From assembly GCF_053078305.1 (NCBI RefSeq), contig NZ_CP166879.1: a stretch of 64,000 nt of DNA, one strand, 5' to 3'. Position 1 is the first letter of the stretch. Every line of letters begins with the position of its first letter. Below the pieces are notes generated by a model, which saw nothing but the letters and a program-made list of their open reading frames with translations, did no database searches and was not told the DNA's origin. The position numbers were made by a program, and so were the translations under genes. Positions 1-15,674 of this stretch are shown piece by piece.

Positions 1-150
1 ACCCGTGGGGCCAATCAGTTTTACAGCGTCATGGAACGGCTGAAGATGCTCGATTCCCTGCAGGCAACACAGCTTCAGTCGGCCATTGTTAAAGCCATTT
101 ATGTCTATCATCTCCCCGTAGTTGTCCGCATCGTTCGCCAACTCCACTGA
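1..150 (+). CDS. B: phage portal protein (lambda gpB-like), upstream part; 5' partial at window edge and interrupted after codon at nt 96, then 18 foreign codons to a stop
   Basis: Frame 1 reads ...FYSVMERLKMLDSLQATQLQSAIVKA, continuous with MYAATIESELD at 11936; matches remembered lambda portal. Confidence 0.75.
   Translation, partial: TRGANQFYSVMERLKMLDSLQATQLQSAIVKAIYVYHLPVVVRIVRQLH
91..98. other. left junction core repeat AAAGCCAT (putative attL core; extended 12/13 match to nt 103)
   Basis: Identical 8-mer at 11930-11937 exactly where the portal reading frame is broken and resumed. Confidence 0.6.
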
Positions 151-298: not shown

Positions 299-1540
299 AT
301 GGCTATTGAAAACAAACTCAGTGACAAACTGTTAAAGAGTCTTGTCGGAAAACGGCAGGACAAACAAAAAACAATAGCGGATGGGCGCGGGTTGTCTGTG
401 CGTGTAAGCATGGTTGGGGGGATCAGCTTTGTTTTTTACTATCGTCTTGGTGGCAGGGAATCCCCTCCGGTATGGCTTACACTTGGGCGCTATCCTGATA
501 TGTCTCTTGCAACAGCCAGGCGCATGCGTGATCAGTGCCGTGAGTGGCTGGCTGAAAATCTGGACCCCCGCAGGCAAATAAAACTTGCCGCCGAAAAAAC
601 CATGCAACCAGTGACCGTAAGGGATGCGCTGTTTTACTGGTACGACAATCACGCCACAACAGCCAGAAAAGAGCATGAATATTTAATAAAACGATTTGAA
701 AAGCATATCTTCCCCTATATCGGTGATATGGCTATAGAACAGTGCAAATTACACACATGGCTTGCCGTCTTTGACAGGATCAAAAAAAATGCGCCTGTTA
801 TGTCTGGTGCAATTTTTCTTGATATCAAACAGGCGTTGCGTTTTTGTCGCGTCAGGCAATACATCGCGTGCGATCCCTTTGGCGATATTAACGTAAGTTA
901 TGTCGGGCGCTCATCCGGTATAAGGGATCGCGTTCTTAATATCAATGAAACAGCGGATGTATGGTCTTATGCTTACGGTAATAATTTGCTGACACTGTCA
1001 TCAATACATAACAGAAGAATAATGGTTATCTGCCTGGTGTTTGGTTGCCGTCAGCAGGAGGCGAGGTTATCCACATGGGACGAATGGGATTTAAAAAACT
1101 GGGTATGGACAGTCCCAAAAGAGCACAGCAAAAACAAGGAGGCCATAGTAAGGCCTGTTCCTGACGGCATAAAACAATGGCTCGTTAATCTTTACGCAGA
1201 AACAAAAAATCGCGGTTATGTTGTCGGTTGTGCTTTGCAAAGGGCGACAATAACAGGGGCTGCAAACAGAATATGCAGGCGTCTTGGTCATGATATTAAT
1301 GGCTTGTGGTGCATACATGATTTCAGGCGCACATTTTCCACTGCGCTTAATGATATGGGGGCGGATCCTTATATTGTCGAACTTCTTTTAGGTCATAAAG
1401 TGAAAGGGGTTGCCGGTGTTTACAATAAAAGCAGGCATATAAAGAAAAAACTTGAGGTGCTTAATATGTGGGTTAATTACCTTAATACGATAGCAGGATT
1501 TAACAACAACGTTATCGAGCTTAATAAAGAGGTGGTGTGA
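299..1540 (+). CDS. int: tyrosine-type site-specific integrase (P4-like family)
   Basis: 413 aa; N-terminal arm-binding-like region, C-terminal HDFRRT...LLGH...GVAGVY catalytic motifs; position at element end. Confidence 0.85.
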   Translation: MAIENKLSDKLLKSLVGKRQDKQKTIADGRGLSVRVSMVGGISFVFYYRLGGRESPPVWLTLGRYPDMSLATARRMRDQCREWLAENLDPRRQIKLAAEKTMQPVTVRDALFYWYDNHATTARKEHEYLIKRFEKHIFPYIGDMAIEQCKLHTWLAVFDRIKKNAPVMSGAIFLDIKQALRFCRVRQYIACDPFGDINVSYVGRSSGIRDRVLNINETADVWSYAYGNNLLTLSSIHNRRIMVICLVFGCRQQEARLSTWDEWDLKNWVWTVPKEHSKNKEAIVRPVPDGIKQWLVNLYAETKNRGYVVGCALQRATITGAANRICRRLGHDINGLWCIHDFRRTFSTALNDMGADPYIVELLLGHKVKGVAGVYNKSRHIKKKLEVLNMWVNYLNTIAGFNNNVIELNKEVV

Positions 1541-1541: not shown

Positions 1542-1799
1542 ATGGCAATTTATTCTCTTGTTGATGAAAACGATTTGCGCACAATGAAGGACATTGATCG
1601 GTTCATTCGTGAAAAAGAGTGCATAGCACTTACCACGCTGGCAAACTCAACACGCTGGAAAATGGAGCAGGCAGGTAAATTCCCGCGACGTATCAAGATC
1701 GGTGAACGTGCGGCAGGGTATCGACTTTCAGAGGTTCAGGCATGGATCCGTGGTGAGTGGCATCCTGGATGGAAACCTGGAAAAACAAAACAGCAATAA
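1542..1799 (+). CDS. alpA: AlpA-family phage transcriptional regulator / excisionase-like HTH protein
   Basis: 85 aa, overlaps int stop, pattern typical of AlpA (CP4-57 regulatory protein) family. Confidence 0.7.
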   Translation: MAIYSLVDENDLRTMKDIDRFIREKECIALTTLANSTRWKMEQAGKFPRRIKIGERAAGYRLSEVQAWIRGEWHPGWKPGKTKQQ

Positions 1800-1853: not shown

Positions 1854-2432
1854 ATGAATAAAAATATTGCCGTGACGGGCAAGGGGTACGCTCGTCCAGT
1901 GAAAAAATTCTGTGATATTCGTGATCTTGTCGTTCTGCGCTTTGATGGTGTGAGCGTTCGCGTGGTGTATGTGAACGGCGATCCGTGGTTTGTTGCCGTT
2001 GACGTGTGCGCTGCGCTGGAAATTGTTGATCACAAGGTTGCGTTACGCCGTCTCGATGATGATGAAAAGGGGGAGTGTTTAATACCCACCCCAGGTGGAA
2101 ATCAAACAATGCGAACGGTATGCGAGTCAGGGTTCTACAAACTAATCGCCAGAAGTCGGAAAGCTGTTACTCCTGGCACGTTCGCCCGTCGTTTCAGTAA
2201 CTGGGTATTCAGAAATGTGATACCAGGTATCAGAAAAACGGGGGCTTATGGTATCCCGTGGGGGGCATTACAGGATTTTTCCCGCCGTAAAGAGCAATAT
2301 CAAATAAGTGCCAGCGAGAAGGGGAGGGAGCTACAGGCATGTAAGCGCAAAAAACGTGAACTGGAGGAAGAAGAAAAAAGGCTGATACGTGAATATCAGC
2401 CTGAGTTTTACTTTGGTGAGCGTATTCAGTAA
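1854..2432 (+). CDS. Bro-N domain protein (phage antirepressor-like)
   Basis: 192 aa; N-terminal FDGVSVRVVYVNGDPWFVAVDVCAALEI resembles Bro-N/antirepressor domain. Confidence 0.55.
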   Translation: MNKNIAVTGKGYARPVKKFCDIRDLVVLRFDGVSVRVVYVNGDPWFVAVDVCAALEIVDHKVALRRLDDDEKGECLIPTPGGNQTMRTVCESGFYKLIARSRKAVTPGTFARRFSNWVFRNVIPGIRKTGAYGIPWGALQDFSRRKEQYQISASEKGRELQACKRKKRELEEEEKRLIREYQPEFYFGERIQ

Positions 2433-3700: not shown

Positions 3701-4045
3701 CACCCGCAAGGGCGGGACTCGCACAACCTGAATAAATACATCTGGCGTTTTCTGGCCCGAAAAAACCAGTTGATCGCCAGTGTCGAAAATAGCTATGATT
3801 CCCGCGCACCTCATAAAACGGGTGCCGGGATTGGCGTCCTGGGCAAAACTGAAGCGCATAACACGCGCCCCGCGTGTTTTTTTGTGCCGCATAGTCACAC
3901 CTTATCAATGGTGGGCTGTACGGGGGCGGAGCAATCCGCGCCGGTTTCTTCAGTGTCCGGTTACGCCAACCCTGTACAGTCCGCCACCAGCGAAATTGGC
4001 GTTTCCGGTGGCGGTTATCTTAACCACACTGAGGAGGCTGCCAAC

Positions 4046-4484: not shown

Positions 4485-4678
4485 AACAGGAGTTTGATGG
4501 TGCGCCTGATGATGCAGGTGATGCGCTTTCGTCAATATCCGAACTGATAAGAGTGGCCTTTTTCTTACTTGGCACGAAAGAATATAAATCAACTGGAATA
4601 GACGTACTGAATATTACTGCTGATTATGCGGAATATATGGCAGAAGTGGATTTAAGAAAGATAACGGACAGGGGGTAA
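4457..4678 (+). CDS. hypothetical protein
   Basis: 73 aa, G-rich RBS upstream, overlaps previous gene end. Confidence 0.45.
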   Translation: MRDDRFNALKQEFDGAPDDAGDALSSISELIRVAFFLLGTKEYKSTGIDVLNITADYAEYMAEVDLRKITDRG

Positions 4679-4679
4679 T

Positions 4680-4913
4680 ATGCGTGATATTTACCACGAA
4701 ACAATAGACCGCGCATTTAGTGCCCTTGCTTACGCTGAAGGTATGTACGAAATATTGCAAATGTGTCTGGAAACATTTGGCGATAATGAGCGTGATGTAA
4801 AGAAGGCGCGGATTATTAAATCACTGATAACTCTCCTTGAACCTGTAATAACAGAGTTGCAGGAAATAGACTTATTGCACGACAGATATAACGAACAGCA
4901 CACCGGAGAATAA
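4680..4913 (+). CDS. hypothetical protein
   Basis: 77 aa, AGGGGG RBS, tightly packed operon. Confidence 0.45.
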   Translation: MRDIYHETIDRAFSALAYAEGMYEILQMCLETFGDNERDVKKARIIKSLITLLEPVITELQEIDLLHDRYNEQHTGE

Positions 4914-4918
4914 AAATA

Positions 4919-5218
4919 ATGAAACTTAAATATCCTGGCTTAACTGCCAGTGGCAACACTCACCCTAAATTTACGCGCGGTGATATTTACCGCGACCAGT
5001 ACGGCGGCACGGTAATGATTAAGGGCGTGGCGGGACGGTGCGTAACTTACCGCCGTGAAGGCTACGAATATGATTGCGTGATGCCTGTTTATCAGTTCCG
5101 GCGTGATTTTTCTCTGGTACAGACCGCGCCGCATAACGTGCCCACCAGCAACGCCAGGGCACGGGCAAACATCCAGAAGCTGAAAACCATGATTAACGGA
5201 TTCAGGGGTAAAAAATGA
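4919..5218 (+). CDS. hypothetical protein
   Basis: 99 aa, GGAG RBS, stop overlaps next start. Confidence 0.45.
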   Translation: MKLKYPGLTASGNTHPKFTRGDIYRDQYGGTVMIKGVAGRCVTYRREGYEYDCVMPVYQFRRDFSLVQTAPHNVPTSNARARANIQKLKTMINGFRGKK

Positions 5219-6624
5219 AACTGGCACCGAACGTAAAACGATTACCGAAAGATAAATACACCGAAGCGGTTATTTTTGCGGGTATTGATGCTCACTCATT
5301 CGCAGAGCATTACATCATTGCACAGGCCAAAAAAGCAGGCGATCCAGTCCCTCCCGTTTATCTGGGGCGTTATCAGTTAAGCGAACTGGATAACCTCCAG
5401 ATTGTTGATGATGGGCGATACAGGGCGACGGTGATACGCGCCGGAAATATTGAAGAGCCGCAGCTGTTAACCATCGCCACGAAACTGGCGAGCGCCGGAG
5501 TCCAGGAGGCGCGGCTACTTTCTGAAAATTTCGAATTGCTGGAGGAATGGAGCGACCAGCTTCCACGGCTTAGGGAGGCATGGGAACGCGGGGAAAGCCT
5601 GGTCATGAAAAAAATTCCCCAGCGAAAAACCACGCTACCGATGAGCGTTGGATCTACCGGATACGACACACAGCTTGATTACGTGGTAAAGGGGATTATT
5701 CCGGCATCGTCGCTTTGCAGCATATACGGGGCGAGCGGTTCCTATAAATCATTCCTTGCCGGATCGTGGGCGTGTCACGTTTCCACGGGCCGCCAGTGGG
5801 GAGGCCGCAGGGTGGCGCATGGCGCTGTTCTCTATGTGGTTGGTGAAGGCGGTATCGGCGTTCCGCGTCGTGTAAAAGCCTGGGAGGTTGTGCACGGTGA
5901 GCAGGTGAAAAATCTGTATCTGGTAAACCGTCCCATCTTTCCGGCTGTCCCGCTTGATGTTGATGAACTGGTTATTGCTGCCAGTCAGGTGGAGAGGGAA
6001 ACGGGTAAACCTGTTCGCATGATTATTCTGGACACGCTGGCGCGTTGCTTTGGCGGCAATGATGAAAATGACTCCCGCGACATGGGGGCATTTATCCGTG
6101 GTTGTGACGAGCTTAAACGGCGCACAGGGGCTACGGTGCTGGTGGTTCACCATTCCGGCAAGGATGAAACAAAGGGGGCGCGTGGTTCCAGTGCATTTCG
6201 TGCATCACTGGACGCTGAATACCGGATACGCAGGGAGGACGCAGGAAGCGAAGCGCTGGTTATCTCATGCACCAAAATGAAGGACGCGGAGGAACTCAAA
6301 GAGGCTGCCTATGATTTGCGGGTGGTGGAGCTTTTTACCGACGCTGACGGGGAGTTAATTACGTCGCTGGTGGTGGTGGATAAGCCGCGCCCTCCCGTTG
6401 AACTGGAGCGCATCGAGGAGGCAGGCAACAAGACGGAAAACCATACCGCGCTATGGGGGTGCATCCGTTCACGCACACAGAACGGCGACAAGTGCACGAT
6501 CCCGCTGTTACGTGACGATATGAAAAAGCTGGGGTATGACACAAAACACCTTAAACGATGGTTAGCCAAACTGGAAAAAGACGACGTGATCTACATTGAC
6601 GGTGATGATGTAGGACCACTGTAA
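5215..6624 (+). CDS. replication initiation protein, RecA-like ATPase (AAA_25/RepA-type) with C-terminal DNA-binding domain
   Basis: 469 aa; Walker A-like GASGSYKS, Walker B MIILD, LVVHHSGKD motif; iterons immediately downstream. Confidence 0.7.
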   Translation: MKLAPNVKRLPKDKYTEAVIFAGIDAHSFAEHYIIAQAKKAGDPVPPVYLGRYQLSELDNLQIVDDGRYRATVIRAGNIEEPQLLTIATKLASAGVQEARLLSENFELLEEWSDQLPRLREAWERGESLVMKKIPQRKTTLPMSVGSTGYDTQLDYVVKGIIPASSLCSIYGASGSYKSFLAGSWACHVSTGRQWGGRRVAHGAVLYVVGEGGIGVPRRVKAWEVVHGEQVKNLYLVNRPIFPAVPLDVDELVIAASQVERETGKPVRMIILDTLARCFGGNDENDSRDMGAFIRGCDELKRRTGATVLVVHHSGKDETKGARGSSAFRASLDAEYRIRREDAGSEALVISCTKMKDAEELKEAAYDLRVVELFTDADGELITSLVVVDKPRPPVELERIEEAGNKTENHTALWGCIRSRTQNGDKCTIPLLRDDMKKLGYDTKHLKRWLAKLEKDDVIYIDGDDVGPL

Positions 6625-6830
6625 AAAGTGGGCATTAAAAGTGGGAAAGGTGGGCGATTTAACGTAATTTTAACAAAATCACCCACTTTCCCACGTGTAT
6701 ATATCCCAAAAAGTGGGCACTAAAAAAATACCTATGAAACAAGATGATATAAATCCCAAACTTCCCACGTTGGACGAAGTGGGAAAACGTAAAAAGTGGG
6801 CGAAAAAAGTGGGTAGAGGTGGGCGAATGA
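6625..6830. repeat. iteron array, putative replication origin of the satellite
   Basis: About ten copies of AAGTGGG(C/A) / GGTGGGCGA in both orientations directly downstream of the rep gene. Confidence 0.7.
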
Positions 6831-7078
6831 CTCAAAAACACAGAGACAGAACAGAGCCAAAATATAAAGCGTTAGACATGACAGAGCACGCTTTAAAGGT
6901 GGCAATCAGGGTAATAGACCGCCACACGCGGGAAGGATACGCGAAGGAACATCCCGACCTGATAAGCGCATTCATGACCACAGCGGCGGCAAACTTTGCC
7001 ACGCTGACAGAACGGGAGATAGCCGAAGCGGAACAGGTAACAACCATCAACGTTAAAACCGGAGAGGTGGAATCATGA
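6827..7078 (+). CDS. hypothetical protein
   Basis: 83 aa from ATG at 6827 (upstream part of track ORF lies in the iterons). Confidence 0.45.
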   Translation: MTQKHRDRTEPKYKALDMTEHALKVAIRVIDRHTREGYAKEHPDLISAFMTTAAANFATLTEREIAEAEQVTTINVKTGEVES

Positions 7079-7485
7079 CAGCACAGATAGCCGCTTACGG
7101 GCGGCTGGTGGACGACCCGCAGGTAAAACAAACCAGCAAGGGCACACCGATGACGCTGGCGCGTATGGCGGTATCTCTGCCATGCAGCCAGGCACAGGAC
7201 GGGCAGGCTACGTTATGGCTATCAGTGATGGCATTTGGTAAGCAGGCCGACTTCCTGGCTAAACATCAAAAAGGCGATGTTGCCAGCGTATCCGGCACGA
7301 TGCAGGTAAGCCAGTGGACCAGACAGAACGGGGAAACGCGGCAGGGTTATCAGGTTATTGCAGACAGTGTAATCAGTGCCCGTGCTGCCCGTCCTGGCGG
7401 GAGCAGACGTACAACCACAGGCACACAGGGTAATCAGCCACCAGCGGGAGGCGATGACCCTTACGGTGACGGTATTCCGTTCTGA
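7075..7485 (+). CDS. ssb: single-stranded DNA-binding protein
   Basis: OB-fold pattern and acidic C-terminal tail DDPYGDGIPF typical of SSB. Confidence 0.75.
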   Translation: MTAQIAAYGRLVDDPQVKQTSKGTPMTLARMAVSLPCSQAQDGQATLWLSVMAFGKQADFLAKHQKGDVASVSGTMQVSQWTRQNGETRQGYQVIADSVISARAARPGGSRRTTTGTQGNQPPAGGDDPYGDGIPF

Positions 7486-7495
7486 GGGGGTGACG

Positions 7496-7768
7496 ATGGT
7501 ACATGACCGCATAGCGGAGGAACTCGAGGCAAAAGGCTTTTACCGGAGGGCGGCGGCGCGATGGGGTGAAGTTATGCAGCTGGTGGAGACAGACAAGGAA
7601 CGGCATCAGGTTACGATGCGACGGCTGGAATGTTCCAGGAAGGCACAGAGGCCACCGGAGCCGCCGGATAACTTCGGAGACCTGAAAAAAGCAGTAGATC
7701 GCACTTATGCCGAAATGGGTATGGATGGTGTAAGCGATGAAATATGGCGTAATTACCCAGACAGCTAA
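7496..7768 (+). CDS. PerC-family transcriptional regulator
   Basis: 90 aa; IAEELEAKGFYRRAAARW motif resembles PerC family. Confidence 0.5.
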   Translation: MVHDRIAEELEAKGFYRRAAARWGEVMQLVETDKERHQVTMRRLECSRKAQRPPEPPDNFGDLKKAVDRTYAEMGMDGVSDEIWRNYPDS

Positions 7769-7774
7769 TCAACA

Positions 7775-7796
7775 GCCGGAGAAATCCGGCTTTTTT
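7775..7796 (+). terminator. rho-independent terminator (GCCGGAGAAATCCGGC + T-run)
   Basis: Perfect hairpin then TTTTTT; identical hairpin recurs at 10049-10071. Confidence 0.65.
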
Positions 7797-8007
7797 GTAC
7801 CCAAAAAAAGCCCGATAAGTACAGGAGGCATCTTATCGGGCTTTTGCATATGAGGTTTTTTTGGTGCACTGACACACATGATCGGGGTAATCATTTCATA
7901 ATTTGCAACACAACTCAACATCATTGCACAAAATGCAATCCTGATTATAATCAGAGCTGGATGAACATCCAGTTCTGATTTTTTAAGTCAAAGAGGAATT
8001 TCTTACT

Positions 8008-8214
8008 ATGGCTGAAGAGAAAAAAGGCGGTGTTTCGGTGTACATAAGCCCCGAAATCGTGGAGGTGCTCAAGCAGCGCCACAAAAAAAACTATGAGGCT
8101 GGCGTAGCGGCTGGACTGGATCCGCTGATGACGCCGGAGCCGTCGATAGGTTCACTTGTGCGCTCTTATTTACTTGCGGCGCTTGGGATGCATAAAAATT
8201 ATGGTGGTGAATAA
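8008..8214 (+). CDS. hypothetical protein
   Basis: 68 aa, AAGAGG RBS, first gene of capsid operon. Confidence 0.45.
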   Translation: MAEEKKGGVSVYISPEIVEVLKQRHKKNYEAGVAAGLDPLMTPEPSIGSLVRSYLLAALGMHKNYGGE

Positions 8215-9269
8215 TGACAGTAAAAGCAATGGCACTTACAACTAACCAGCTTTTCGCGTACCTGAATCGCGGGGATATTGCAGAATTTAAATTCAGTCCG
8301 CTGTTTACCACGCTGTTTTTCCCGAACGTGGCGACCTTCAACACCCAGAACATCATGCTGGACACCCTGGACATTGAAGAGGTTACGATGTCAGCGTTCT
8401 GTTCGCCTATGGTGGGTAGTCAGGTCCAGCGCGATAAAGGGTACGAAACCAGCACGATTAAACCAGGCTACATGAAACCCAAACACGAAATCGATCCAAC
8501 AAAAACCATCATGCGCATGGCTGGAGAAGATCCGGCACAGCTTAACGACCCTACCTACCGCCGTATGCGCCTGATTACTGGCAACATGCGCCGCCAGATA
8601 AACGCCATTAAAGCGCGCGTGGAATGGCTGGCGGTGAATGCGATAACGACCGGAAAAAACATCATTGAGGGCGAAGGCATAGAACGCTATGAAATCGACT
8701 GGAAAATACCGGAAAACTGCATCATAGAGCAGGCCAAGGGTAAAAAATGGTCCGAGCATGATAAAGATATTTACGATCCAATCTATGACATCGAACTATA
8801 CGCAGATCAGGCAGGTTGCCCCGCCAACGTCATGATTATGGGCGCTGAGGTATGGCGCACGTTACGCAGCTTTAAAAAATTCCGCGAACTGTACGATCTT
8901 TCCCGTGGTTCAGAATCCGCCGCAGAACTGGCCTGTAAAAACCTGGGTGAAGTAGTGAGCTTTAAAGGCTATCTGGGCGATATTGCCCTTATCGTCTATT
9001 CCGGCAAATACACTGACAGCGACGGTACCGAAAAATATTTCCTTGAGCCTGATTTGCTGGTCCTGGGTAACACCAACAATAAAGGGCTGGTGGCCTATGG
9101 TGCGATTATGGATCAGGAAGCGGTAAGAACGGGCGCAACGCAAAACATGTTCTACCCGAAAAACTGGATTGAAGACGGCGATCCGGCGATTGAGTACGTT
9201 CAGACGCACAGCGCACCGCAGCCGGTACCGGCAGATATTCGCAAATTTGTTACCGTCAAAATTGCTTAA
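8214..9269 (+). CDS. major capsid protein, lambda gpE-like paralog encoded by the satellite
   Basis: 351 aa; clear similarity to helper E at 14646-15674 (PGYVKPKHE, EDPAQLNDP, VVSFKGY, VLGNT motifs). Confidence 0.85.
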   Translation: MTVKAMALTTNQLFAYLNRGDIAEFKFSPLFTTLFFPNVATFNTQNIMLDTLDIEEVTMSAFCSPMVGSQVQRDKGYETSTIKPGYMKPKHEIDPTKTIMRMAGEDPAQLNDPTYRRMRLITGNMRRQINAIKARVEWLAVNAITTGKNIIEGEGIERYEIDWKIPENCIIEQAKGKKWSEHDKDIYDPIYDIELYADQAGCPANVMIMGAEVWRTLRSFKKFRELYDLSRGSESAAELACKNLGEVVSFKGYLGDIALIVYSGKYTDSDGTEKYFLEPDLLVLGNTNNKGLVAYGAIMDQEAVRTGATQNMFYPKNWIEDGDPAIEYVQTHSAPQPVPADIRKFVTVKIA

Positions 9270-9280
9270 CGGGGGATTCT

Positions 9281-9616
9281 ATGGACACTCCATACATTGA
9301 GTTATTTGCAGGCAGTCAGCAGGTATCCACGACGCTGGTACATTTTGCCGCTGATGCTGGCGTTATTCAGGAATTTACCCCGCTGATGCTGGCGGACAAT
9401 GGCGAGTTTAAGCCGTGGGATGGTCAGGAATCTGGCAAGGCTGTTTATCTGACCTCGTACCCCGTGGACACGTCAAAGCAGAAATCAGCACAGTGTTACA
9501 AGACGGGGATATTTAATATCGCCGCCGTAAACTGGCCTGAGAGCGCCGACACTGACGCGAAAAAATGCGCCGCCTTTGCGGGTTCTGGCGTATCCGTTCA
9601 GCCGCTGGCGCGATAA
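9281..9616 (+). CDS. head decoration protein, lambda gpD-like paralog
   Basis: 111 aa; TPLMLA...WDGQ...YKSG/TGIF...WPES...AFAG pattern shared with helper D at 14241-14588. Confidence 0.75.
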   Translation: MDTPYIELFAGSQQVSTTLVHFAADAGVIQEFTPLMLADNGEFKPWDGQESGKAVYLTSYPVDTSKQKSAQCYKTGIFNIAAVNWPESADTDAKKCAAFAGSGVSVQPLAR

Positions 9617-9628
9617 GCAGGGGAAACG

Positions 9629-10042
9629 ATGGCAACGAATGAAAGCATCATGGCGCTACCGCTGGCGAGTAAATTTAAAGCAGAAGCGCGGGCAATGGCT
9701 GACAGAGGTTTATCAACCTACGAGGCCGTATATCAACTCAACAAACTGGAAGAGCAGGACAAGCCGCGCGCTGATGCGATTATGGCGCTTCATGAACATA
9801 ACGACTATCAGCCGCTGTTACGTGCAATGGCAAACGTGCCATGTATTAGCGTCGATAATGCTCGTGAAATCCTGAACATGACCATAGAGCAGGAGCGCCC
9901 AAAGGTTGCGCCGGAGCTTACCGCAGCCTTTGAAAACTTTATGGACATGCACAGCCCGAAAGCCGTATCACCCGGCATGGCATACGACGGCAGAAACCAG
10001 GGCGATGAAGGCGACGTCGATCGCATACTGAAAACCATCTGA
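9629..10042 (+). CDS. scaffold protein, Nu3-like (scaffold domain only, no protease domain)
   Basis: 137 aa; C-terminus AAFENFMDMHSPKAV...DEGDVD parallels helper C/Nu3 C-terminus ALFEHFMANHSPAAV...ADGDAD. Confidence 0.65.
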   Translation: MATNESIMALPLASKFKAEARAMADRGLSTYEAVYQLNKLEEQDKPRADAIMALHEHNDYQPLLRAMANVPCISVDNAREILNMTIEQERPKVAPELTAAFENFMDMHSPKAVSPGMAYDGRNQGDEGDVDRILKTI

Positions 10043-10048
10043 CATAAG

Positions 10049-10071
10049 GCCGGAGAAATCCGGCTTTTTTT
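10049..10071 (+). terminator. rho-independent terminator after capsid operon
   Basis: GCCGGAGAAATCCGGC hairpin followed by TTTTTTT. Confidence 0.65.
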
Positions 10072-10130
10072 ACGGGTCCTTTCCGGCATATGGACCCGTT
10101 ACGGGGCGGCGACCTCGCGGTTTTTCGCTA
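10072..10130 (+). other. cos site 1 (cosN GGGCGGCGACCT at 10104-10115 with cosQ-like and cosB-like flanks), rightward orientation
   Basis: Exact lambda 12-nt cohesive-end sequence and lambda-like flanks ACGGGTCCTTTCCGG...CGCGGTTTTTCGCTATTTATGA. Confidence 0.8.
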
Positions 10131-10248
10131 TTTATGAGCTTTTTTCGGGTGCTGGTGGTGGTTTTGTTGTTCGCTCTATCTCTATGAATAAAAAGGGAAA
10201 GATAAAACCAATACACCAACCTGAAACATTACTTAAGTGGGGATATTG

Positions 10249-10791
10249 ATGAAATCGCACCTGATGAACAAAAAAAACATGGCGCAAAGCTGCCGTGTAA
10301 GTGCGACAGCGTTCGACAAGTGGGGAGTGACTCCCGTTGAACGTAAAGGACGCGAGGCTTTTTACGATGTTGCCAGCGTGATAGACAATCGGGTAAGCAA
10401 TGCAATTAACCAGGTTACAAACGACAAAGGCGAGATTGATGATGATGAACTCTTACGAGTCAGGATCAGATTACTGACCGCCCAGGCTGAGGCGCAGGAA
10501 CTTAAAAACGAGCGCGATCGCGGTGACGTAATTGATACTGAGTTTTGCCTGTACGCGCTTTCAAAGCTGGCGAGTCAGATTTCTTCAATCATGGACAGTT
10601 TGCCGCTTACCATGCAAAGGCGCTTCCCGCAGATTACTCCCGCTATGCTGGATGGGCTTAAAAGGGAAGTGGTTAAAGCCTGTAATGCCAGTGCCACAGT
10701 TGCCGACAACCTCCCGAAGATACTGGCTGATTACCTGATGGAAACTACCGGAGACGTACCGGAGAAGTTGCTACAGAAGAAAGGCGAGTAA
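10249..10791 (+). CDS. terminase small subunit, lambda Nu1-like
   Basis: LTAQAEAQELKNERDRGDVIDTEFCLYALSKLASQISSIMDSLPLTMQRRFP parallels remembered lambda Nu1; start uncertain (10237/10249/10264). Confidence 0.75.
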   Translation: MKSHLMNKKNMAQSCRVSATAFDKWGVTPVERKGREAFYDVASVIDNRVSNAINQVTNDKGEIDDDELLRVRIRLLTAQAEAQELKNERDRGDVIDTEFCLYALSKLASQISSIMDSLPLTMQRRFPQITPAMLDGLKREVVKACNASATVADNLPKILADYLMETTGDVPEKLLQKKGE

Positions 10792-10962
10792 CAGACGCGC
10801 AATTATTGAACAAAAGTAAGGCCCGACATGAAATCACCCAAAAATGCCTTTTTCATGCGTTTGTATGTCTGACCTTTTACGGTTTCGATATTATAAAAAA
10901 CAAATAGTTACGCTCGAGAGGTACCGACACGCATTTTTCAGGAAAATTTTCATAAACAGATA

Positions 10963-11015
10963 AAAACCGCGAGGTCGCCGCCCCGTAACGGGCCATAATT
11001 CCAGGAAGGACCCGA
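10963..11015 (-). other. cos site 2 (cosN reverse complement at 10972-10983), inverted relative to cos site 1
   Basis: AGGTCGCCGCCC plus lambda-like flanks on the minus strand. Confidence 0.75.
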
Positions 11016-11047
11016 CGACACCAGGCTATCAGAACGATGAGGGCACA

Positions 11048-11329
11048 ATGACAGAAGCCGAACTACTGGGATTAATCCGCTACGTTACCGGAATCAGCCA
11101 GCAGCATGACGAACAGGCCACGCAGCCGGACAGCGTGACCGCTGAAAATTATGCGCGTGTTGTTGCTGAGGTGATGCGCCGTGATGGTATCCAGCTTAAT
11201 GATGCAGATATGCGCGACATACGGATCCGCGTTCTTGAAATGCTGGCCTACCGTCGCCGCGTGCAGACGTACAGGGAAAAAGCAAAAATAACGTACCAGT
11301 GGAAGAAGCCGGAGCGATTACGGCGGTAA
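11048..11329 (+). CDS. hypothetical protein
   Basis: 93-aa ORF, last gene before the right junction. Confidence 0.4.
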   Translation: MTEAELLGLIRYVTGISQQHDEQATQPDSVTAENYARVVAEVMRRDGIQLNDADMRDIRIRVLEMLAYRRRVQTYREKAKITYQWKKPERLRR

Positions 11330-11834
11330 CTTGCTGATATTCCCGATAACGCAAAATTGCGCTCTGTCCTAACCCGTTGATATTTTCGGGAACAGCCAAC
11401 GGCTGAGGCCGGAACAACGATTATCTTTCAGATAGTCAGAGCTACGAAATTTTCGTAGTTTAATTACTCGCCAGTTTATCGTTAACTCGTTGATATTTTC
11501 GGTAACCTCAATTTGAGGAGATCGGAAACATAACCCTTCACATTCTGAATGGTTATAATGACCACTCAGACCATCAAGGCAACCATAACGAACATCGTTA
11601 CGGTTGGAGCTTTTACCCCACTGGGGGGAAGGTGCACATCTGGATCATCATTACCGTGATCAAGGGTATGTAAAACCCACCAGCCTGATTAACTGTTAAC
11701 CGGAAAAAAGCCAGGTAGCCAATCTCGATATGGGGATCCCCATATCGACATTAACGCCCCCTAGAACTGCGCATATCTGCATATAAAAACATCCACCAGC
11801 TTTATGACGGATGCCGCTCATCTGATAAATAATC

Positions 11835-11857
11835 GTGTATTGCAATGTGTATTGCGA
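11835..11857 (+). repeat. two direct copies of GTGTATTGCAA/GTGTATTGCGA near right end (arm-type sites)
   Basis: Same motif as the triplet at 228-280. Confidence 0.55.
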
Positions 11858-11929
11858 CTCCTTTAAACGATAGGTTTGAGCATTCGTAATGTACTGTTTT
11901 TAAATTTTATTTTTTCCTGTCTTTTCATA

Positions 11930-11937
11930 AAAGCCAT
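11930..11937. other. right junction core repeat AAAGCCAT (putative attR core)
   Basis: Identical to 91-98; portal frame resumes here. Confidence 0.6.
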
Positions 11938-12709
11938 GTATGCAGCGACGATTGAAAGTGAACTTGATACCGAAAAGGCCTTTGAATATATCGCCGGTGC
12001 GCCGCAGGGGCAGAAGGATAATCCGCTTATTAATATTCTGGATAAGTTCTCCACCTGGTATGACACGAATATCGTGACGCTGGGCGGTGTCAAAATTCCG
12101 CACCTTTTCCCCGGTGATGATCTGAAACTTCAGACCGCGCAGGATTCAGACAATGGATTTTCGGCGCTTGAACAGGCGCTGCTGCGGTATATCGCCGCCG
12201 GTCTTGGCGTTTCCTACGAACAGTTGTCCCGTGATTACTCGAAGGTCAGTTATTCAAGTGCCCGCGCCTCCGCCAATGAGTCGTGGCGCTATTTTATGGG
12301 ACGACGAAAATTTATTGCAGCCCGGCTGGCCACGCAGATGTTTTCCTGCTGGCTGGAAGAGGCACTTCTTCGGGGGATTATCCGTCCGCCACGGGCACGT
12401 TTTGATTTTTATCAGGCGCGTTCAGCCTGGTCGCGGGCAGAGTGGATTGGCGCAGGAAGAATGGCCATTGACGGGCTCAAGGAGGTCCAGGAATCAGTGA
12501 TGCGCATTGAGGCCGGACTGAGCACGTATGAGAAAGAGCTGGCGCTGATGGGTGAGGATTATCAGGACATTTTCCGCCAGCAGGTCAGGGAATCCGCAGA
12601 GCGGGAAAAAGCCGGACTCTCACGTCCGGTGTGGATAGCGCAGGCGTATCAGCAGCAGATAGCAGAGAGCCGCAGGCCGGAAGAGGAGACAACACCACGT
12701 GAGACGTAA
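11930..12709 (+). CDS. B: phage portal protein (lambda gpB-like), downstream part resuming after the insertion
   Basis: KAMYAATIESELD...YIAAGLGVSYEQLSR...MAIDGLKEVQE resembles remembered lambda portal C-terminal half. Confidence 0.8.
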   Translation, partial: KAMYAATIESELDTEKAFEYIAGAPQGQKDNPLINILDKFSTWYDTNIVTLGGVKIPHLFPGDDLKLQTAQDSDNGFSALEQALLRYIAAGLGVSYEQLSRDYSKVSYSSARASANESWRYFMGRRKFIAARLATQMFSCWLEEALLRGIIRPPRARFDFYQARSAWSRAEWIGAGRMAIDGLKEVQESVMRIEAGLSTYEKELALMGEDYQDIFRQQVRESAEREKAGLSRPVWIAQAYQQQIAESRRPEEETTPRET

Positions 12710-14204
12710 TCTTTCACACATTATTGCCGCAGCATTCAATGAACCGCTGCTTCTGGAGCCCGCCTATGCGCGGGTTTTCTTTTGCGCGCTCGGGCGCGAG
12801 ATGGGGGCAGCAAGTCTTTCGTTACCACAACAGCAGGTACAGCTTGATGCTCCCGGGATGCTGGCTGAAACGGACGAGTACATGGCCGGAGGTAAACGAC
12901 CGGCCCGTGTTTACCGGGTGGTGAACGGTATTGCGGTACTGCCGGTGACCGGCACGCTGGTGCACCGGCTGGGTGGTATGCGGCCATTTTCCGGAATGAC
13001 AGGCTATGACGGCATTGTTGCCTGTCTTCAGCAGGCAATGGCGGACACCTCTGTCCGGGGCGTACTGCTGGATATTGACAGTCCGGGCGGGCAGGCCGCC
13101 GGTGCGTTTGACTGCGCTGACATGATTTACCGCCTCCGGCAGCAGAAGCCGGTCTGGGCACTGTGTAATGACACGGCCTGTTCTGCGGCCATGCTGCTGG
13201 CGTCGGCCTGCTCCCGACGGCTGGTTACCCAGACATCCCGTATCGGCTCCATTGGCGTGATGATGGGCCATGTCAGCTATGCCGGTCATCTGGCGCAGGC
13301 CGGAGTGGATATCACGCTGATTTATGCCGGGGCGCATAAGGTGGATGGCAATCAGTTTGAAGCGTTGCCGTCAGAGGTTCGCCAGGACATGCAGCAGCGG
13401 ATTGATGCGGCGCGCCGGATGTTTGCCGAAAAAGTGGCGATGTATACGGGGCTGTCTGTGGAAGCTGTCACGGGGACAGAGGCTGCCGTTTTTGAAGGTC
13501 AGTCCGGTATTGAAGCCGGGCTGGCGGATGAATTAATCAATGCGTCGGATGCCATCAGTGTGATGGCTGCGGCGTTGAACACACATGATACAGGAGGCAC
13601 TATGCCGCAATTAACTGCAACGGAAGCCGCCGCGCAGGAGAACCAGCGAGTGATGGGGATCCTGACGTGTCAGGAAGCGAAAGGACGTGAACAGCTTGCC
13701 ACGATGCTGGCAGGACAACAGGGCATGAGCGTTGAACAGGCCCGGGCGATTCTGGCCGCGGCGGCACCACAGCAGCCGGTGGCATCCGCGCAGAGTGAAG
13801 CCGATCGCATTATGGCGTGTGAAGAAGCTAAAGGTCGTGAACAACTGGCGGCAACGCTGGCGGCGATGCCGGATATGACGGTGGAAAAAGCCCGCCCGAT
13901 CCTGGCGGCTTCACCGCAGGTGGATGCCGGCCCCTCACTCCGTGATCAGATTATGGCTCTGGATGAGGCAAAAGGGGCTGAGGCGCAGGCTGAACAGCTG
14001 GCTGCCTGCCCGGGAATGACAGTGGAGAGCGCCCGGGCTGTGCTGGCTGCGGGATCAGGTAAGGCAGAACCGGTTTCTGCATCAACAACCGCCCTGTTTG
14101 AACATTTCATGGCGAACCATTCACCGGCAGCCGTGCAGGGTGGCGTGTCACAGACGTCGGCAGACGGTGATGCGGACGTGAAAATGCTCATGGCCATGCC
14201 ATGA
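12699..14204 (+). CDS. C: prohead protease (S49/ClpP-like, lambda gpC) with nested in-frame scaffold (Nu3) region
   Basis: 501 aa; peptidase region then three ~40-aa scaffold-like repeats and a C-terminus similar to the satellite Nu3-like protein. Confidence 0.8.
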   Translation: MRRNLSHIIAAAFNEPLLLEPAYARVFFCALGREMGAASLSLPQQQVQLDAPGMLAETDEYMAGGKRPARVYRVVNGIAVLPVTGTLVHRLGGMRPFSGMTGYDGIVACLQQAMADTSVRGVLLDIDSPGGQAAGAFDCADMIYRLRQQKPVWALCNDTACSAAMLLASACSRRLVTQTSRIGSIGVMMGHVSYAGHLAQAGVDITLIYAGAHKVDGNQFEALPSEVRQDMQQRIDAARRMFAEKVAMYTGLSVEAVTGTEAAVFEGQSGIEAGLADELINASDAISVMAAALNTHDTGGTMPQLTATEAAAQENQRVMGILTCQEAKGREQLATMLAGQQGMSVEQARAILAAAAPQQPVASAQSEADRIMACEEAKGREQLAATLAAMPDMTVEKARPILAASPQVDAGPSLRDQIMALDEAKGAEAQAEQLAACPGMTVESARAVLAAGSGKAEPVSASTTALFEHFMANHSPAAVQGGVSQTSADGDADVKMLMAMP

Positions 14205-14240: not shown

Positions 14241-14588
14241 ATGGTAACGAAAACCATCACTGAACAACGTGCGGAAGTACGTATTTTTGCCGGTAATGAT
14301 CCGGCTCATACCGCCACAGGCAGCAGCGGGATTTCTCAGGCAACACCGGCACTGACGCCCCTGATGCTGGATGAAGCCAGCGGGAAACTGGTGGTCTGGG
14401 ACGGACAGAAAGCCGGTAATGCGGCTGGCATACTGGTACTGCCGCTTGAAGGCACAGAGACGGTGCTGACGTATTACAAGTCGGGGACCTTTGCGACGGA
14501 GGCAATCCGCTGGCCTGAAAGTGTGGATGAACACAAAAAGGCCAACGCCTTTGTCGGCACAGCCCTGAGTCACGCGGCGCTGCCGTAA
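14241..14588 (+). CDS. D: head decoration protein gpD
   Basis: 115 aa; close to remembered lambda D (DPAHTATG, TPLMLD, YKSGTF, WPE). Confidence 0.85.
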   Translation: MVTKTITEQRAEVRIFAGNDPAHTATGSSGISQATPALTPLMLDEASGKLVVWDGQKAGNAAGILVLPLEGTETVLTYYKSGTFATEAIRWPESVDEHKKANAFVGTALSHAALP

Positions 14589-14645: not shown

Positions 14646-15674
14646 ATGGGATTGTTTACGACCCGCCAGTTACTCGGTTATACCGAACAAAAAGTGAAAT
14701 TTCGTGCGCTGTTTCTGGAGCTGTTTTTCCGCCGTACGGTGAATTTCCACACCGAAGAGGTGATGCTGGATAAAATTACCGGAAAAACGCCGGTGGCAGC
14801 CTATGTCTCCCCGGTTGTTGAAGGAAAAGTGCTGCGTCATCGTGGTGGTGAAACCCGCGTGTTGCGTCCGGGCTACGTCAAGCCGAAACACGAATTTAAT
14901 TACCAGCAGGCGGTGGAGCGCCTTCCCGGTGAAGATCCGGCGCAACTGAACGACCCGGCCTACCGTCGTCTGCGTATCATCACTGATAACCTCAAACAGG
15001 AAGAGCATGCCATTGTCCAGGTGGAGGAAATGCAGGCGGTGAATGCCGTGCTGTATGGCAAATACACCATGGAAGGGGAGCAGTTTGATACTGTCGAGGT
15101 GGATTTCGGGCGCTCTGAAGGAAATAACATTGAGCAGGCTGACGGTAAAAAATGGTCTGAGCAGGACCGTGATACGTTTGATCCGACGCATGATATTGAC
15201 CTCTACTGCGATCAGGCCAGCGGTCTTGTGAATATCGCCATTATGGACGGTACGGTCTGGCGTCTGCTGAATGGCTTTAAGTTGTTCCGCGAAAAACTGG
15301 ATGCCCGTCGCGGCTCAAATTCACAACTCGAAACAGCAGTGAAAGACCTGGGGTCGGTGGTGTCCTTCAAGGGGTATTACGGCGATCTGGCCATTGTGGT
15401 GGCGAAAACGTCTTATGTGGCAGAGGACGGTACCGAAAAACGTTATCTGCCGGAGGGCACGCTGGTCCTGGGAAATACGTCAGCGGAGGGCATCCGTTGC
15501 TATGGTGCCATTCAGGATGCGCAGGCGTTGTCCGAAGGTGTGGTGGCCTCTTCCCGTTATCCGAAACACTGGATGACCGTGGGCGATCCGGCCCGTGAAT
15601 TCACCATGACGCAGTCCGCGCCGCTGATGGTGCTGCCGGATCCGGATGAGTTTGTGGTGGTACAGGTGAAATAA
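14646..15674 (+). CDS. E: major capsid protein gpE
   Basis: 342 aa; high similarity to remembered lambda E. Confidence 0.9.
   Translation: MGLFTTRQLLGYTEQKVKFRALFLELFFRRTVNFHTEEVMLDKITGKTPVAAYVSPVVEGKVLRHRGGETRVLRPGYVKPKHEFNYQQAVERLPGEDPAQLNDPAYRRLRIITDNLKQEEHAIVQVEEMQAVNAVLYGKYTMEGEQFDTVEVDFGRSEGNNIEQADGKKWSEQDRDTFDPTHDIDLYCDQASGLVNIAIMDGTVWRLLNGFKLFREKLDARRGSNSQLETAVKDLGSVVSFKGYYGDLAIVVAKTSYVAEDGTEKRYLPEGTLVLGNTSAEGIRCYGAIQDAQALSEGVVASSRYPKHWMTVGDPAREFTMTQSAPLMVLPDPDEFVVVQVK

What the first reader, a model, noticed from the sequence alone, without database searches (positions are those of the whole stretch)
8008..10042. Satellite carries its own diverged capsid shell, decoration and scaffold genes but no portal, protease or large terminase
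Three consecutive genes are clear but diverged paralogs of the helper genes E (14646-15674), D (14241-14588) and the Nu3 scaffold region of C (12699-14204), with the scaffold homolog lacking the protease domain. This points to capsid remodelling by substituting the shell, scaffold and decoration proteins while borrowing helper portal, protease, terminase and tails. That is distinct from P4 Sid-type external scaffolds and from fully capsid-forming islands that bring portal and terminase.
Basis: partly seen in the sequence, partly recalled or inferred. Interest (0 to 1): 0.88.

Follow-up and report, generated by a model that had tools for sequence, protein, structure and literature searches.

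The report
Known phage satellite's own head-shell genes
This is the head-shell gene cluster of a known type of E. coli phage satellite, nearly identical to the one in the model island EcCICFT073 and here lodged inside its helper prophage's portal gene; the homologies are real, but what the genes do is still unknown.

Summary
Window 8214-9269, 9281-9616 and 9629-10042 encode diverged homologs of the neighbouring prophage's E (47% identity, E=1e-110), D (34%, 5e-16) and the C-terminal Nu3/scaffold part of C (35% over 83 aa, 2e-9). The 11.8-kb element has no portal, protease or large terminase.

The class is already described. The three proteins are 96.6%, 97.3% and 89.8% identical to c1499, c1500 and the next gene of the model Gram-negative PICI EcCICFT073. 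The capsid protein has a crystal structure (PDB 3BQW). The module occurs in 589 of 5426 complete E. coli genomes.

The element sits precisely inside the helper's portal gene B. That makes it a helper-embedded PICI, as published in 2022-23. It also carries its own Nu1-like small terminase and two lambda-like cos sites.

[quoted passage not shown] "Capsid remodelling" is therefore not supported.

What I add:
- The third gene is a stand-alone Nu3-type scaffold homolog matched to this helper type.
- The genes are under purifying selection (capsid dN/dS about 0.07).
- No sequenced phage has a capsid more than 47% identical.

The most likely role is a self-supplied shell kit of normal head size. Interest is low to moderate.

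The parts
1..103 (+). Upstream piece of the helper portal gene B, up to the attL crossover core AAAGCCATTTATG (91-103)
   Evidence: Translation reads ...RLKMLDSLQATQLQSAIVKAIY, as in lambda-family portals. It is contiguous with 11930 onward in the uninterrupted portal of phage PhiR12_2_star.
227..282 (+). Arm-type repeats TGTGTATTGCAA (three copies here, a fourth at 11846-11859)
   Evidence: Repeat family D7. This matches the 'doubled DNA motif' reported for HE-PICI attP regions.
299..1540 (+). Tyrosine integrase
   Evidence: PHROG 1 integrase, E=1.6e-58. 98.8% aa identity to the integrase of another portal-embedded element in E. coli GZEC065.
1542..1799 (+). AlpA-type excisionase/regulator
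   Evidence: PHROG 2790, E=1.9e-15.
1854..2432 (+). Bro-N / anti-repressor family protein (Bro zone)
   Evidence: PHROG 2593, E=1.5e-78.
3806..3991 (+). isrK-like (3806-3882) and C4 antisense (3904-3991) RNAs, a P4-type immunity RNA pair
   Evidence: Rfam RF01394 at 66 bits and RF01695 at 77.6 bits, both above their gathering scores.
5215..6624 (+). RepA-family helicase (replication zone)
   Evidence: PHROG 2850, E=1e-222, plus primase/helicase families.
7075..7485 (+). Single-stranded DNA-binding protein
   Evidence: PHROG 44, E=1e-38.
7496..7768 (+). PerC-family putative transcriptional activator, just upstream of the shell module
   Evidence: PHROG 994 and activator families match residues 41-130 of ORF 7376-7768. 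The ortholog is annotated as PerC family in O55:H7 and CFT073.
7775..7796 (+). Terminator-like hairpin; an identical 22-nt copy follows the module at 10049-10070
   Evidence: Exact repeat D18 GCCGGAGAAATCCGGCTTTTTT and terminator scan.
7925..7980 (+). Conserved promoter-like block (TTGCAC, 16 nt, TATAAT) overlapping a 14-bp-arm palindrome, just before ORF 8008
   Evidence: Read from the sequence. The block is conserved in six elements, including a diverged one; the palindrome is less well kept in the diverged one. Function is inferred only.
8008..8214 (+). Conserved 68-aa ORF of unknown function; its stop overlaps the capsid start codon
   Evidence: PHROG 3255, unknown function, E=8.5e-46. No Pfam, PDB-fold or helper match. 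dN/dS 0.31-0.37. Present in CFT073, O55:H7, ST130 and L006.
8214..9269 (+). Satellite major capsid protein, lambda gpE family (HK97 fold)
   Evidence: 47% to helper E and 43% to lambda E. PHROG 29, E=1.4e-107. PDB 3BQW, E=2.9e-232. 96.6% to CFT073 c1499. dN/dS 0.055-0.082.
9281..9616 (+). Satellite head decoration protein, lambda gpD family
   Evidence: 34% to helper D. PHROG 49, E=4e-27. Matches solved 'head decoration protein' chains such as 1TD0, E=6e-13. 97.3% to c1500. dN/dS 0.03-0.2.
9629..10042 (+). Stand-alone Nu3-type scaffold homolog (137 aa), no protease domain
   Evidence: phmmer hit to a phage Nu3-type ORF that precedes D and E (P0041/L007, E=2.3e-4 in 1.8e9 proteins). AlphaFold2 model is all-alpha with a disordered stretch at 109-126 and a terminal helix. 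89.8% to the CFT073 ortholog. dN/dS 0.22-0.27.
10104..10115 (+). cosN-like GGGCGGCGACCT with lambda-like flanks (cos1)
   Evidence: Compared with the lambda left end.
10237..10791 (+). Satellite small terminase, full-length Nu1 homolog
   Evidence: 36% to lambda Nu1 over 179 aa, E=4e-35. PHROG 57, E=9e-52. No match to any solved structure, RppC included.
10972..10983 (-). Second cosN-like site in inverted orientation (cos2)
   Evidence: EcCICFT073 is reported to carry two cos sites.
11048..11329 (+). Conserved 93-aa ORF of unknown function
   Evidence: PHROG 1561, E=1.5e-55. 81.7% to the CFT073 ortholog.
11930..12709 (+). attR core AAAGCCATGTATG (11930-11942) and the downstream piece of helper portal gene B
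   Evidence: The junction falls at codons 272-276 of the 530-aa portal, near position 240 of Pfam Phage_portal_2.
12699..14204 (+). Helper C (S49 protease fused to Nu3-type scaffold repeats, 501 aa)
   Evidence: 53% to lambda C. 96% to the C of the CFT073 resident prophage.
14241..14588 (+). Helper decoration protein D
   Evidence: 90% to the CFT073 prophage D.
14646..15674 (+). Helper major capsid protein E
   Evidence: 62% to lambda E. The head region is 95.9% identical at DNA level to the PhiR12_x phage genome records.

Best explanation
The interval is the late (head-shell) module of an EcCICFT073-type Gram-negative phage-inducible chromosomal island. Here the 11.8-kb island is inserted precisely into, and co-oriented with, portal gene B of a lambdoid prophage of the same type as the CFT073 resident prophage. 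That makes it a helper-embedded PICI.

The module encodes a 68-aa protein of unknown function, a lambda-E-family capsid protein, its cognate lambda-D-family decoration protein, and a protease-less Nu3-type internal scaffold.

Proposed mechanism:
1. After helper induction the island is replicated and read through as part of the helper's late transcript, then excises and restores the portal gene.
2. Its own capsid, scaffold and decoration proteins build lambda-sized (T=7-type) shells on the helper's portal.
3. The helper's C protease matures these shells.
4. The helper's large terminase fills them, directed to the island's cos site by the island's own Nu1-type small terminase. About four island copies (47.3 kb) go into each head.
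5. Helper connectors and tails complete the particles.

On this view the kit makes the island independent of the helper's E, D and Nu3 supply. This would matter when helper late genes are interrupted, mutated or repressed. The kit does not change head size and is redundant when the helper's shell genes work.

Shown: the homologies, the gene content, the embedded position, conservation, purifying selection, and identity with EcCICFT073.
Inferred: that the proteins assemble into DNA-filled shells, that helper portal and protease accept them, and that head size is unchanged in this pair.
For: - Identity with the known module: capsid 96.6%, decoration 97.3% and scaffold-like 89.8% to CFT073 c1499, c1500 and the next gene. 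The capsid is near-identical to PDB 3BQW.
- Embedded position: attL and attR cores flank the island, and the empty site is seen in a phage portal gene. The same integrase is found in portal genes of two other genomes.
- The genes are functional. dN/dS is 0.055-0.082 for capsid, 0.03-0.2 for decoration and 0.22-0.27 for scaffold-like, with no internal stops in the four copies compared. The module is complete in 589 of 5426 E. coli genomes.
- It is a satellite-specific lineage: no phage capsid exceeds 47% identity.
- Capsid and decoration genes travel as a pair in two diverged satellite variants (55% and 54% identity between variants). This is expected if the decoration protein must fit its own shell.
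- The scaffold-like gene matches the 501-aa C type of this helper and of the CFT073 prophage, not lambda-type C. Islands in lambda-type helpers lack it.
- A packaging kit lies next to the module: a Nu1 homolog and two cosN sites.
- Normal head size and redundancy fit the published data. EcCICFT073 DNA is packaged at phage length, and deletion of c1499 or c1500 is tolerated.
- Four copies of 11,826 bp make 47.3 kb.
- In strain EC93 the helper E is a pseudogene while the embedded island's capsid gene is intact.
Against: - No experiment shows these proteins in particles.
- Deletion of c1499 or c1500 in EcCICFT073 had no effect on transfer or interference, so a structural role has never been demonstrated. 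If it exists it is dispensable under laboratory conditions.
- The helper-matching argument rests on three or four loci that are not independent.
- This island interrupts B yet carries no portal gene, so the published 'backup copy of the interrupted gene' idea does not apply here.
- Compatibility of a 47%-identical capsid protein with the helper portal and protease is assumed, not tested.
- The helper in this window is also split in tail gene Z by a Mu-like prophage. This particular pair may no longer be productive.
Confidence: 0.5

Rival explanations
1. Size redirection, as the first reader suggested and as Ccm does in SaPIbov5. On this view the island's capsid, scaffold and decoration proteins build smaller, island-sized heads that exclude the helper genome.
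For: The island has its own capsid and its own scaffold, the two determinants of shell geometry. An 11.8-kb genome is about one quarter of the helper's. SaPIbov5 Ccm and the Pasteurella island PmCI172 are precedents in which a satellite capsid homolog goes with small heads. The published size test used lambda, whose C/Nu3 is of a different type from this module's natural helper.
Against: With EcCICFT073, whose module is 90-97% identical, all packaged DNA was phage-sized. Deleting c1499 or c1500 did not relieve interference or alter transfer by the resident prophages. GN-PICI DNA is described as packaged in about 45-kb concatemers.
Confidence: 0.15
2. Interference. The island's shell proteins co-assemble with, or compete against, the helper's E, D and Nu3 and poison helper head assembly. 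This would add to the block on helper packaging.
For: The proteins are homologous but diverged, which is typical of dominant-negative assembly subunits. Satellites commonly interfere at capsid assembly. In EcCICFT073 the strong Rpp block could mask a second, weaker effect.
Against: Single deletions of c1499 or c1500 did not restore lambda plaques. A poison would not need a cognate decoration protein. Very low capsid dN/dS across its whole length, together with the near-identical ortholog crystallising as an HK97-fold protein (3BQW), fits a working shell subunit better.
Confidence: 0.1
3. Passive cargo. The genes are leftovers of late-gene capture from a helper and have no role for the island.
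For: Late-gene capture by PICIs is documented, and the knockouts were neutral.
Against: The genes are under purifying selection, intact in all copies examined, and present as a full-length match in 589 genomes. No source phage lies within 47% identity. The gene order is rearranged relative to phages.
Confidence: 0.03

Closest known systems
EcCICFT073, the model Gram-negative PICI of E. coli CFT073 (Fillol-Salom et al. 2018, PMC6092414; 2019, PMC6739421)
   Same: It has the same late module in the same order: PerC-family gene, 68-aa ORF, capsid c1499, decoration c1500, 137-aa protein and 93-aa ORF. Identities are 96.6%, 97.3% and 89.8% for the three homologs. It has two cos sites. Its resident prophage is of the same type as the helper here: C 96%, D 90%, E 94%.
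   Different: EcCICFT073 lies in the chromosome next to phoQ and acts in trans, whereas this island is inside the helper's portal gene. EcCICFT073 has RppA (144 aa) where this island has a full-length Nu1-type small terminase. The integrase, AlpA and Bro zones are unrelated at the DNA level.
Helper-embedded PICIs (HE-PICI/HES; Tommasini, Mageeney & Williams 2022-23, bioRxiv 10.1101/2022.07.18.500453, PMC10111431)
   Same: [quoted passage not shown] The site corresponds to their B:Phage_portal_2:240-243 group. It has the repeated attP motif, the four zones (integration, Bro with C4/isrK RNAs, replication, late), and its own capsid gene.
   Different: The prototype 11capE sits in gene E and lacks terS. 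This one sits in B, has terS, and carries the EcCICFT073-type shell module rather than the variant found with the same integrase in GZEC065 and EC93.
SaPIbov5 Ccm (Staphylococcus cos-type PICI)
   Same: It is a satellite that encodes a homolog of its helper's major capsid protein while borrowing portal, protease and terminase.
   Different: Ccm redirects helper capsid protein into small heads and is the interference factor. It comes with no decoration or scaffold partner. For the E. coli module, neither size change nor interference could be shown.
Capsid-forming PICIs (cf-PICI, e.g. EcCIEDL933)
   Same: It is a PICI backbone carrying head genes and a small terminase.
   Different: cf-PICIs also encode portal, protease, head-tail connectors, HNH and large terminase, and steal only tails. 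None of these genes is present here.
P4 Sid/Psu
   Same: The satellite lifestyle is shared. So are the P4-like C4/isrK immunity RNAs here and the Icd-like and Ash genes annotated in related islands.
   Different: P4 uses an external scaffold (Sid) on helper capsid protein and has no capsid homolog. No Sid-like gene was found here.

Membership tests
Gram-negative PICI (EcCICFT073 type) | Island of about 10-15 kb with int, alpA and a replication module all in one direction, and no lysis or tail genes | tested here: met
   11,826 bp between the att cores. It has int, AlpA, Bro, RepA helicase and SSB, and no lysis or tail families.
Gram-negative PICI (EcCICFT073 type) | Late zone orthologous to c1499/c1500 and neighbouring genes | tested here: met
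   96.6%, 97.3%, 89.8% and 81.7% identity for capsid, decoration, 137-aa and 93-aa proteins, in the same order.
Gram-negative PICI (EcCICFT073 type) | cos-type packaging with helper-like cosN, and redirection of helper terminase | tested here: inconclusive
   Two cosN-like sites are present. The redirecting factor here is a Nu1-type TerS rather than Rpp. Function was not tested.
Gram-negative PICI (EcCICFT073 type) | Induction, replication and high-frequency transfer by a helper phage | not testable with these tools
   This needs induction and transduction experiments.
Helper-embedded PICI (HE-PICI) | [quoted passage not shown] | tested here: met
   Portal fragments lie at 1-103 and 11930-12709 on the same strand. 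The empty site is seen in the phage PhiR12_2_star portal.
Helper-embedded PICI (HE-PICI) | Integrase of the HE clade using one of the published late-gene sites | tested here: inconclusive
   The site maps near position 240 of Phage_portal_2, matching the published B:Phage_portal_2:240-243 group. The integrase is 98.8% identical to one in two other portal-embedded islands. No phylogeny against the published clade was made.
Helper-embedded PICI (HE-PICI) | Repeated motif in the attP arms | tested here: met
   TGTGTATTGCAA occurs three times near attL and once near attR. Identity with the published motif could not be checked because the figure is not held.
Capsid-forming PICI (cf-PICI) | Encodes portal, head maturation protease, head-tail connectors and large terminase | tested here: not met
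   No such family was found in any ORF. tblastn with lambda A, W, B, C and FII finds nothing.
Ccm-type capsid size redirection | The satellite capsid homolog causes small heads and blocks the helper | not testable with these tools
   A homolog is present. Published tests on the near-identical EcCICFT073 genes were negative.
Lambda Nu3-type internal scaffold | Homology to the C-terminal, protease-free part of gpC / Nu3 | tested here: met
   Direct comparison with lambda Nu3 itself is only weak: it picks the same repeat motif at E=0.0076 and 5% probability.
Lambda Nu3-type internal scaffold | Acts as an assembly scaffold inside proheads and is removed by the protease | not testable with these tools
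   Only an all-alpha model with a disordered tail supports this. The fold search gave no significant match.

The most novel reading that the evidence does not exclude
With its natural helper type (501-aa C, as in the CFT073 prophage and the PhiR12 phages) rather than lambda, the island's capsid, scaffold and decoration trio might replace the helper's shell proteins on the helper portal. This would give particles with a satellite-specific shell, possibly of different size or stability. It would be a third morphogenetic strategy, lying between classical PICIs that use helper capsids and cf-PICIs that make whole heads. The published negative results would then reflect a helper mismatch (lambda) or redundancy.
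Probability: 0.2. Interest if true: 0.7.

Novelty: already known. Interest (0 to 1): 0.28.

Why it matters
The gene content and the embedded configuration are both published, so the finding does not reveal a new kind of system.

One question stays open. Many Gram-negative PICIs keep a capsid gene: 21 of 29 reference islands do, and the module seen here is in about 11% of complete E. coli genomes. These genes are under strong purifying selection, yet knockouts show no phenotype.

Two results here make that question more testable. The third gene is a stand-alone Nu3-type scaffold. The module also appears matched to one helper protease/scaffold type. The island therefore carries a complete shell kit, and the prediction is clear: it should rescue helpers that lack E, D or Nu3, and its proteins should be found in particles made with the matching helper.

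Tried and rejected
1. Recent duplication of helper genes. Rejected: identities are 47%, 34% and 35%. The satellite capsid is an outgroup to helper E and lambda E. No phage exceeds 47%. The gene order is reversed.
2. The RefSeq name 'phage head-tail connector protein' for the 137-aa protein. No NCBIfam, Pfam or PDB support was found. My guess is that the name echoes the old 'head-tail preconnector' label for C/Nu3.
3. ORF 10237-10791 as Rpp. Rejected: it has no match to any solved structure, RppC included. It is a full-length Nu1 homolog. CFT073 has an unrelated 144-aa protein at that position.
4. The 68-aa ORF as a ribbon-helix-helix regulator or a gpW analog. The AlphaFold2 model (pLDDT 72) shows an extended N-terminus and two helices, but the fold search gave nothing significant, and there is no similarity to lambda W or any helper gene. 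Left as unknown.
5. Fold search with the scaffold-like model gave no significant match.
6. ATTGCAA boxes as a shared AlpA site at the att arms and the module promoter. The heptamer is not enriched in the window and is absent from the promoter block. Dropped.
7. tblastn of the 137-aa protein against the window, and of helper C against the satellite, missed the hit that BLASTP, HMM and hhalign find. I treated this as a seeding failure and checked it with a shuffle test.
8. The TSD-based guess for the Mu-like right end (CAGTGCC at 54313) was wrong. The end was placed instead from the C-terminal fragment of helper Z at 56263-56388.
9. No E. coli complete genome holds this exact island (best 67% coverage). 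The source strain was not identified.
Full report
**What is at the coordinates**

The interval 8008-10042 holds four tightly packed plus-strand ORFs:
- a 68-aa ORF (8008-8214) whose stop overlaps the next start codon;
- a 351-aa protein (8214-9269);
- a 111-aa protein (9281-9616);
- a 137-aa protein (9629-10042).

| Satellite protein | Helper partner | Identity | E-value |
|---|---|---|---|
| capsid, 351 aa | E (14646-15674) | 47% over 343 aa | 1e-110 |
| decoration, 111 aa | D (14241-14588) | 34% | 5e-16 |
| 137-aa protein | C, residues 416-493 of 501 | 35% over 83 aa | 2e-9 |

Further support for these pairs:
- Shuffle tests give z=23 for the decoration pair and z=12 for the scaffold pair.
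- PHROG families agree: major head protein, head decoration, and for the 137-aa protein only the extreme C-terminus of the 'head maturation protease' profile.
- The 137-aa protein has no Pfam domain, so it has no S49 protease domain.
- hhalign of its family against the last 200 residues of helper C gives 95.8% probability.
- A search of 1.8 billion representative proteins found only eight relatives. One is a 195-aa phage Nu3-type ORF that directly precedes D and E genes.
- Against lambda Nu3 itself the match is weak, but it falls on the same repeat motif that helper C shares with lambda C.
- An AlphaFold2 model is all-alpha with a disordered tail and a terminal helix. This is compatible with a scaffold, but no fold match was significant.

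**What the surrounding element is**

The genes upstream and downstream make a typical Gram-negative PICI:
- upstream: integrase, AlpA, a Bro-family protein, C4/isrK immunity RNAs, RepA helicase, SSB and a PerC-family regulator;
- then the shell module;
- downstream: a full-length Nu1-type small terminase and a conserved 93-aa ORF.

tblastn with lambda Nu1, A, W, B, C, D, E, FI and FII finds only Nu1, D and E homologs in the island. The absence of portal, protease and large terminase is therefore confirmed.

Two cosN-like sites with lambda-like flanks bracket the terminase gene in inverted orientation.

**The island sits inside the helper's portal gene**

The first 103 bases of the window encode a lambda-family portal up to ...SAIVKAIY. 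The same reading frame resumes at 11930 with KAMYAATIESELD.... A 13-bp core (AAAGCCAT[T/G]TATG) is present at both junctions.

Both flanks are contiguous in the intact portal gene of phage PhiR12_2_star, which serves as an empty site. The junction is at codons 272-276 of the 530-aa portal, near position 240 of Pfam Phage_portal_2.

This is the helper-embedded PICI configuration described by Tommasini, Mageeney and Williams. It corresponds to their portal site group at profile positions 240-243. TGTGTATTGCAA repeats in the arms fit their attP motif.

An integrase 98.8% identical sits in the portal genes of lambdoid prophages in E. coli GZEC065 and EC93.

**It is the EcCICFT073 module**

The capsid protein matches PDB 3BQW ('putative capsid protein of prophage') at E=2.9e-232.

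In E. coli CFT073, the island next to phoQ has the same order: PerC-family gene, 68-aa ORF, capsid, decoration, 137-aa protein, a 144-aa protein (RppA by size and position) and a 93-aa ORF. Identities to the window are:

| Protein | Identity to CFT073 ortholog |
|---|---|
| capsid | 96.6% |
| decoration | 97.3% |
| 137-aa protein | 89.8% |
| 68-aa ORF | 67.6% |
| 93-aa ORF | 81.7% |

Fillol-Salom et al. 2018 named c1499 and c1500 as capsid and decoration genes of EcCICFT073.

The CFT073 resident lambdoid prophage has C, D and E that are 96%, 90% and 94% identical to the helper here. The window therefore holds essentially the known island-module/helper-type pair, arranged in cis instead of in trans.

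The module is complete in 589 of 5426 complete E. coli genomes at 90-96% DNA identity. It sits in islands with different integrases, insertion sites and replication genes.

**Not a recent duplication**

- The satellite capsid is 47% identical to helper E and 43% to lambda E, whereas helper E and lambda E share 62%.
- In 50,697 phage records, 410 have a homolog and none exceeds 47% identity.
- The gene order E-D-Nu3-like is the reverse of the phage order.
- Pairwise Nei-Gojobori estimates among four islands give these dN/dS ranges, with no internal stops:

| Gene | dN/dS |
|---|---|
| capsid | 0.055-0.082 |
| decoration | 0.03-0.2 |
| scaffold-like | 0.22-0.27 |
| 68-aa ORF | 0.31-0.37 |

The genes are maintained by selection in a satellite-specific lineage.

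**What is known about function**

For EcCICFT073, all DNA packaged with lambda was phage-sized. Deleting c1499 or c1500 neither restored lambda plaques nor changed island transfer by the resident prophages. Interference was later assigned to Rpp.

The HE-PICI paper states that capsid genes occur in 21 of 29 reference GN-PICIs, are not required for transfer, and that the DNA is packaged as concatemers of about 45 kb. It suggests a 'backup copy' role for islands that interrupt the same gene. That idea cannot apply here, because the island interrupts B but carries E, D and a Nu3-like gene.

None of the papers read mentions Nu3 or a scaffold for the third gene.

**Best-supported mechanism**

The island carries a complete shell kit: capsid protein, cognate decoration protein and internal scaffold. 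A packaging-specificity kit (small terminase and cos) lies next to it.

- Capsid and decoration genes always travel together. With the same integrase, GZEC065 and EC93 carry a second satellite variant. Its capsid and decoration proteins are 55% and 54% identical to those here and 41% to their own helper's E. That variant has no 68-aa ORF and no Nu3-like gene, and its helpers have lambda-type 439-aa C.
- The Nu3-like gene matches only the 501-aa C type, through the last repeat and an FExFMxxHSPxAV motif.
- I infer that the proteins assemble on the helper portal into normal-size heads. The helper protease would mature these heads, and the helper large terminase would fill them with about four island copies (4 x 11,826 = 47.3 kb).
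- This would make the island independent of the helper's own shell genes and redundant when those genes work. It is consistent with the neutral knockouts, but no experiment shows it.
- In EC93 the helper E is a pseudogene while the island capsid is intact. That is the kind of situation in which the kit would pay off.

**Regulation (inference only)**

The module is bracketed by identical 22-nt terminator hairpins at 7775 and 10049. It is preceded by a block that looks like TTGCAC-16-TATAAT overlapping a 14-bp-arm palindrome. The promoter-like block is conserved in six islands, and the palindrome is less well kept in the most diverged one.

In the embedded state, antiterminated helper late transcription should read through the whole island, as proposed in the HE-PICI paper.

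**Verdict**

The kind of system is already known. The residual interest lies in the unexplained function of a widespread and well-conserved shell module.

Noticed in passing
window 16941 to about 56275: A Mu-like transposable prophage of about 39 kb is inserted in the helper's tail gene Z. It has a repressor at 17246-17764 (minus strand), transposase A at 18184-20292, B at 20364-21296, its own terminase and head genes, and a Mom-like gene at 55413-56150. The N-terminal part of Z ends near 16940 and the last 42 codons of Z are at 56263-56388. The lambdoid 'helper' is therefore interrupted twice and may be tail-defective.
   Followed up: partly
window 10104-10115 (+) and 10972-10983 (-): Two near-perfect lambda cosN sequences, with lambda-like flanks, lie in inverted orientation on either side of the island's small terminase gene.
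   Followed up: partly
window 10237-10791: This island has a full-length Nu1-type small terminase (36% to lambda Nu1) at the position where EcCICFT073 has the unrelated 144-aa RppA. Related islands fall into TerS-type and Rpp-type, and the ST130 island has neither annotated.
   Followed up: partly
window 7775-7796 and 10049-10070; 7925-7980: Identical 22-nt terminator hairpins bracket the shell module. A conserved promoter-like block overlapping a 14-bp-arm palindrome lies just before the 68-aa ORF.
   Followed up: partly
window 3806-3991: isrK-like and C4 antisense RNA genes (P4-type immunity RNAs) lie in the Bro zone. The 464-aa plus-strand ORF 2843-4237 that spans them has a low-complexity, Ser/Ala/Cys-rich translation and covers a region where related islands have short genes, some on the opposite strand. 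It looks spurious to me.
   Followed up: no
proteins P0027, P0030, P0031 (E. coli; relatives of window 9629-10042): Some E. coli carry a 93-aa version of the scaffold-like protein with an in-frame 44-residue deletion (residues 21-64). The deletion lies between two short repeats (EARAMA and LLRAMAN), which points to an internal repeat structure like that of helper C.
   Followed up: no
L011 (E. coli EC93) 27364-28389 and 21254-22294: In EC93 the helper prophage's major capsid gene is annotated as a pseudogene with an internal stop. The capsid gene of the island embedded in that prophage's portal gene is intact.
   Followed up: no
L006 (metagenome contig ERR3372453_225): A more diverged copy of the same four-gene module has capsid 83% and decoration 85% identical, but the scaffold-like protein only 38%. 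The N-terminal IMxLPLASKF and C-terminal IDRILKTI ends are conserved. It is followed by an Rpp-like 146-aa gene.
   Followed up: partly
window 1-12000 vs E. coli genomes: No complete E. coli genome in the collection holds this exact island. The integration zone matches portal-embedded islands at 95-98%. The rest matches phoQ-linked islands at about 91%. The island therefore looks like a recombinant of two known lineages.
   Followed up: partly
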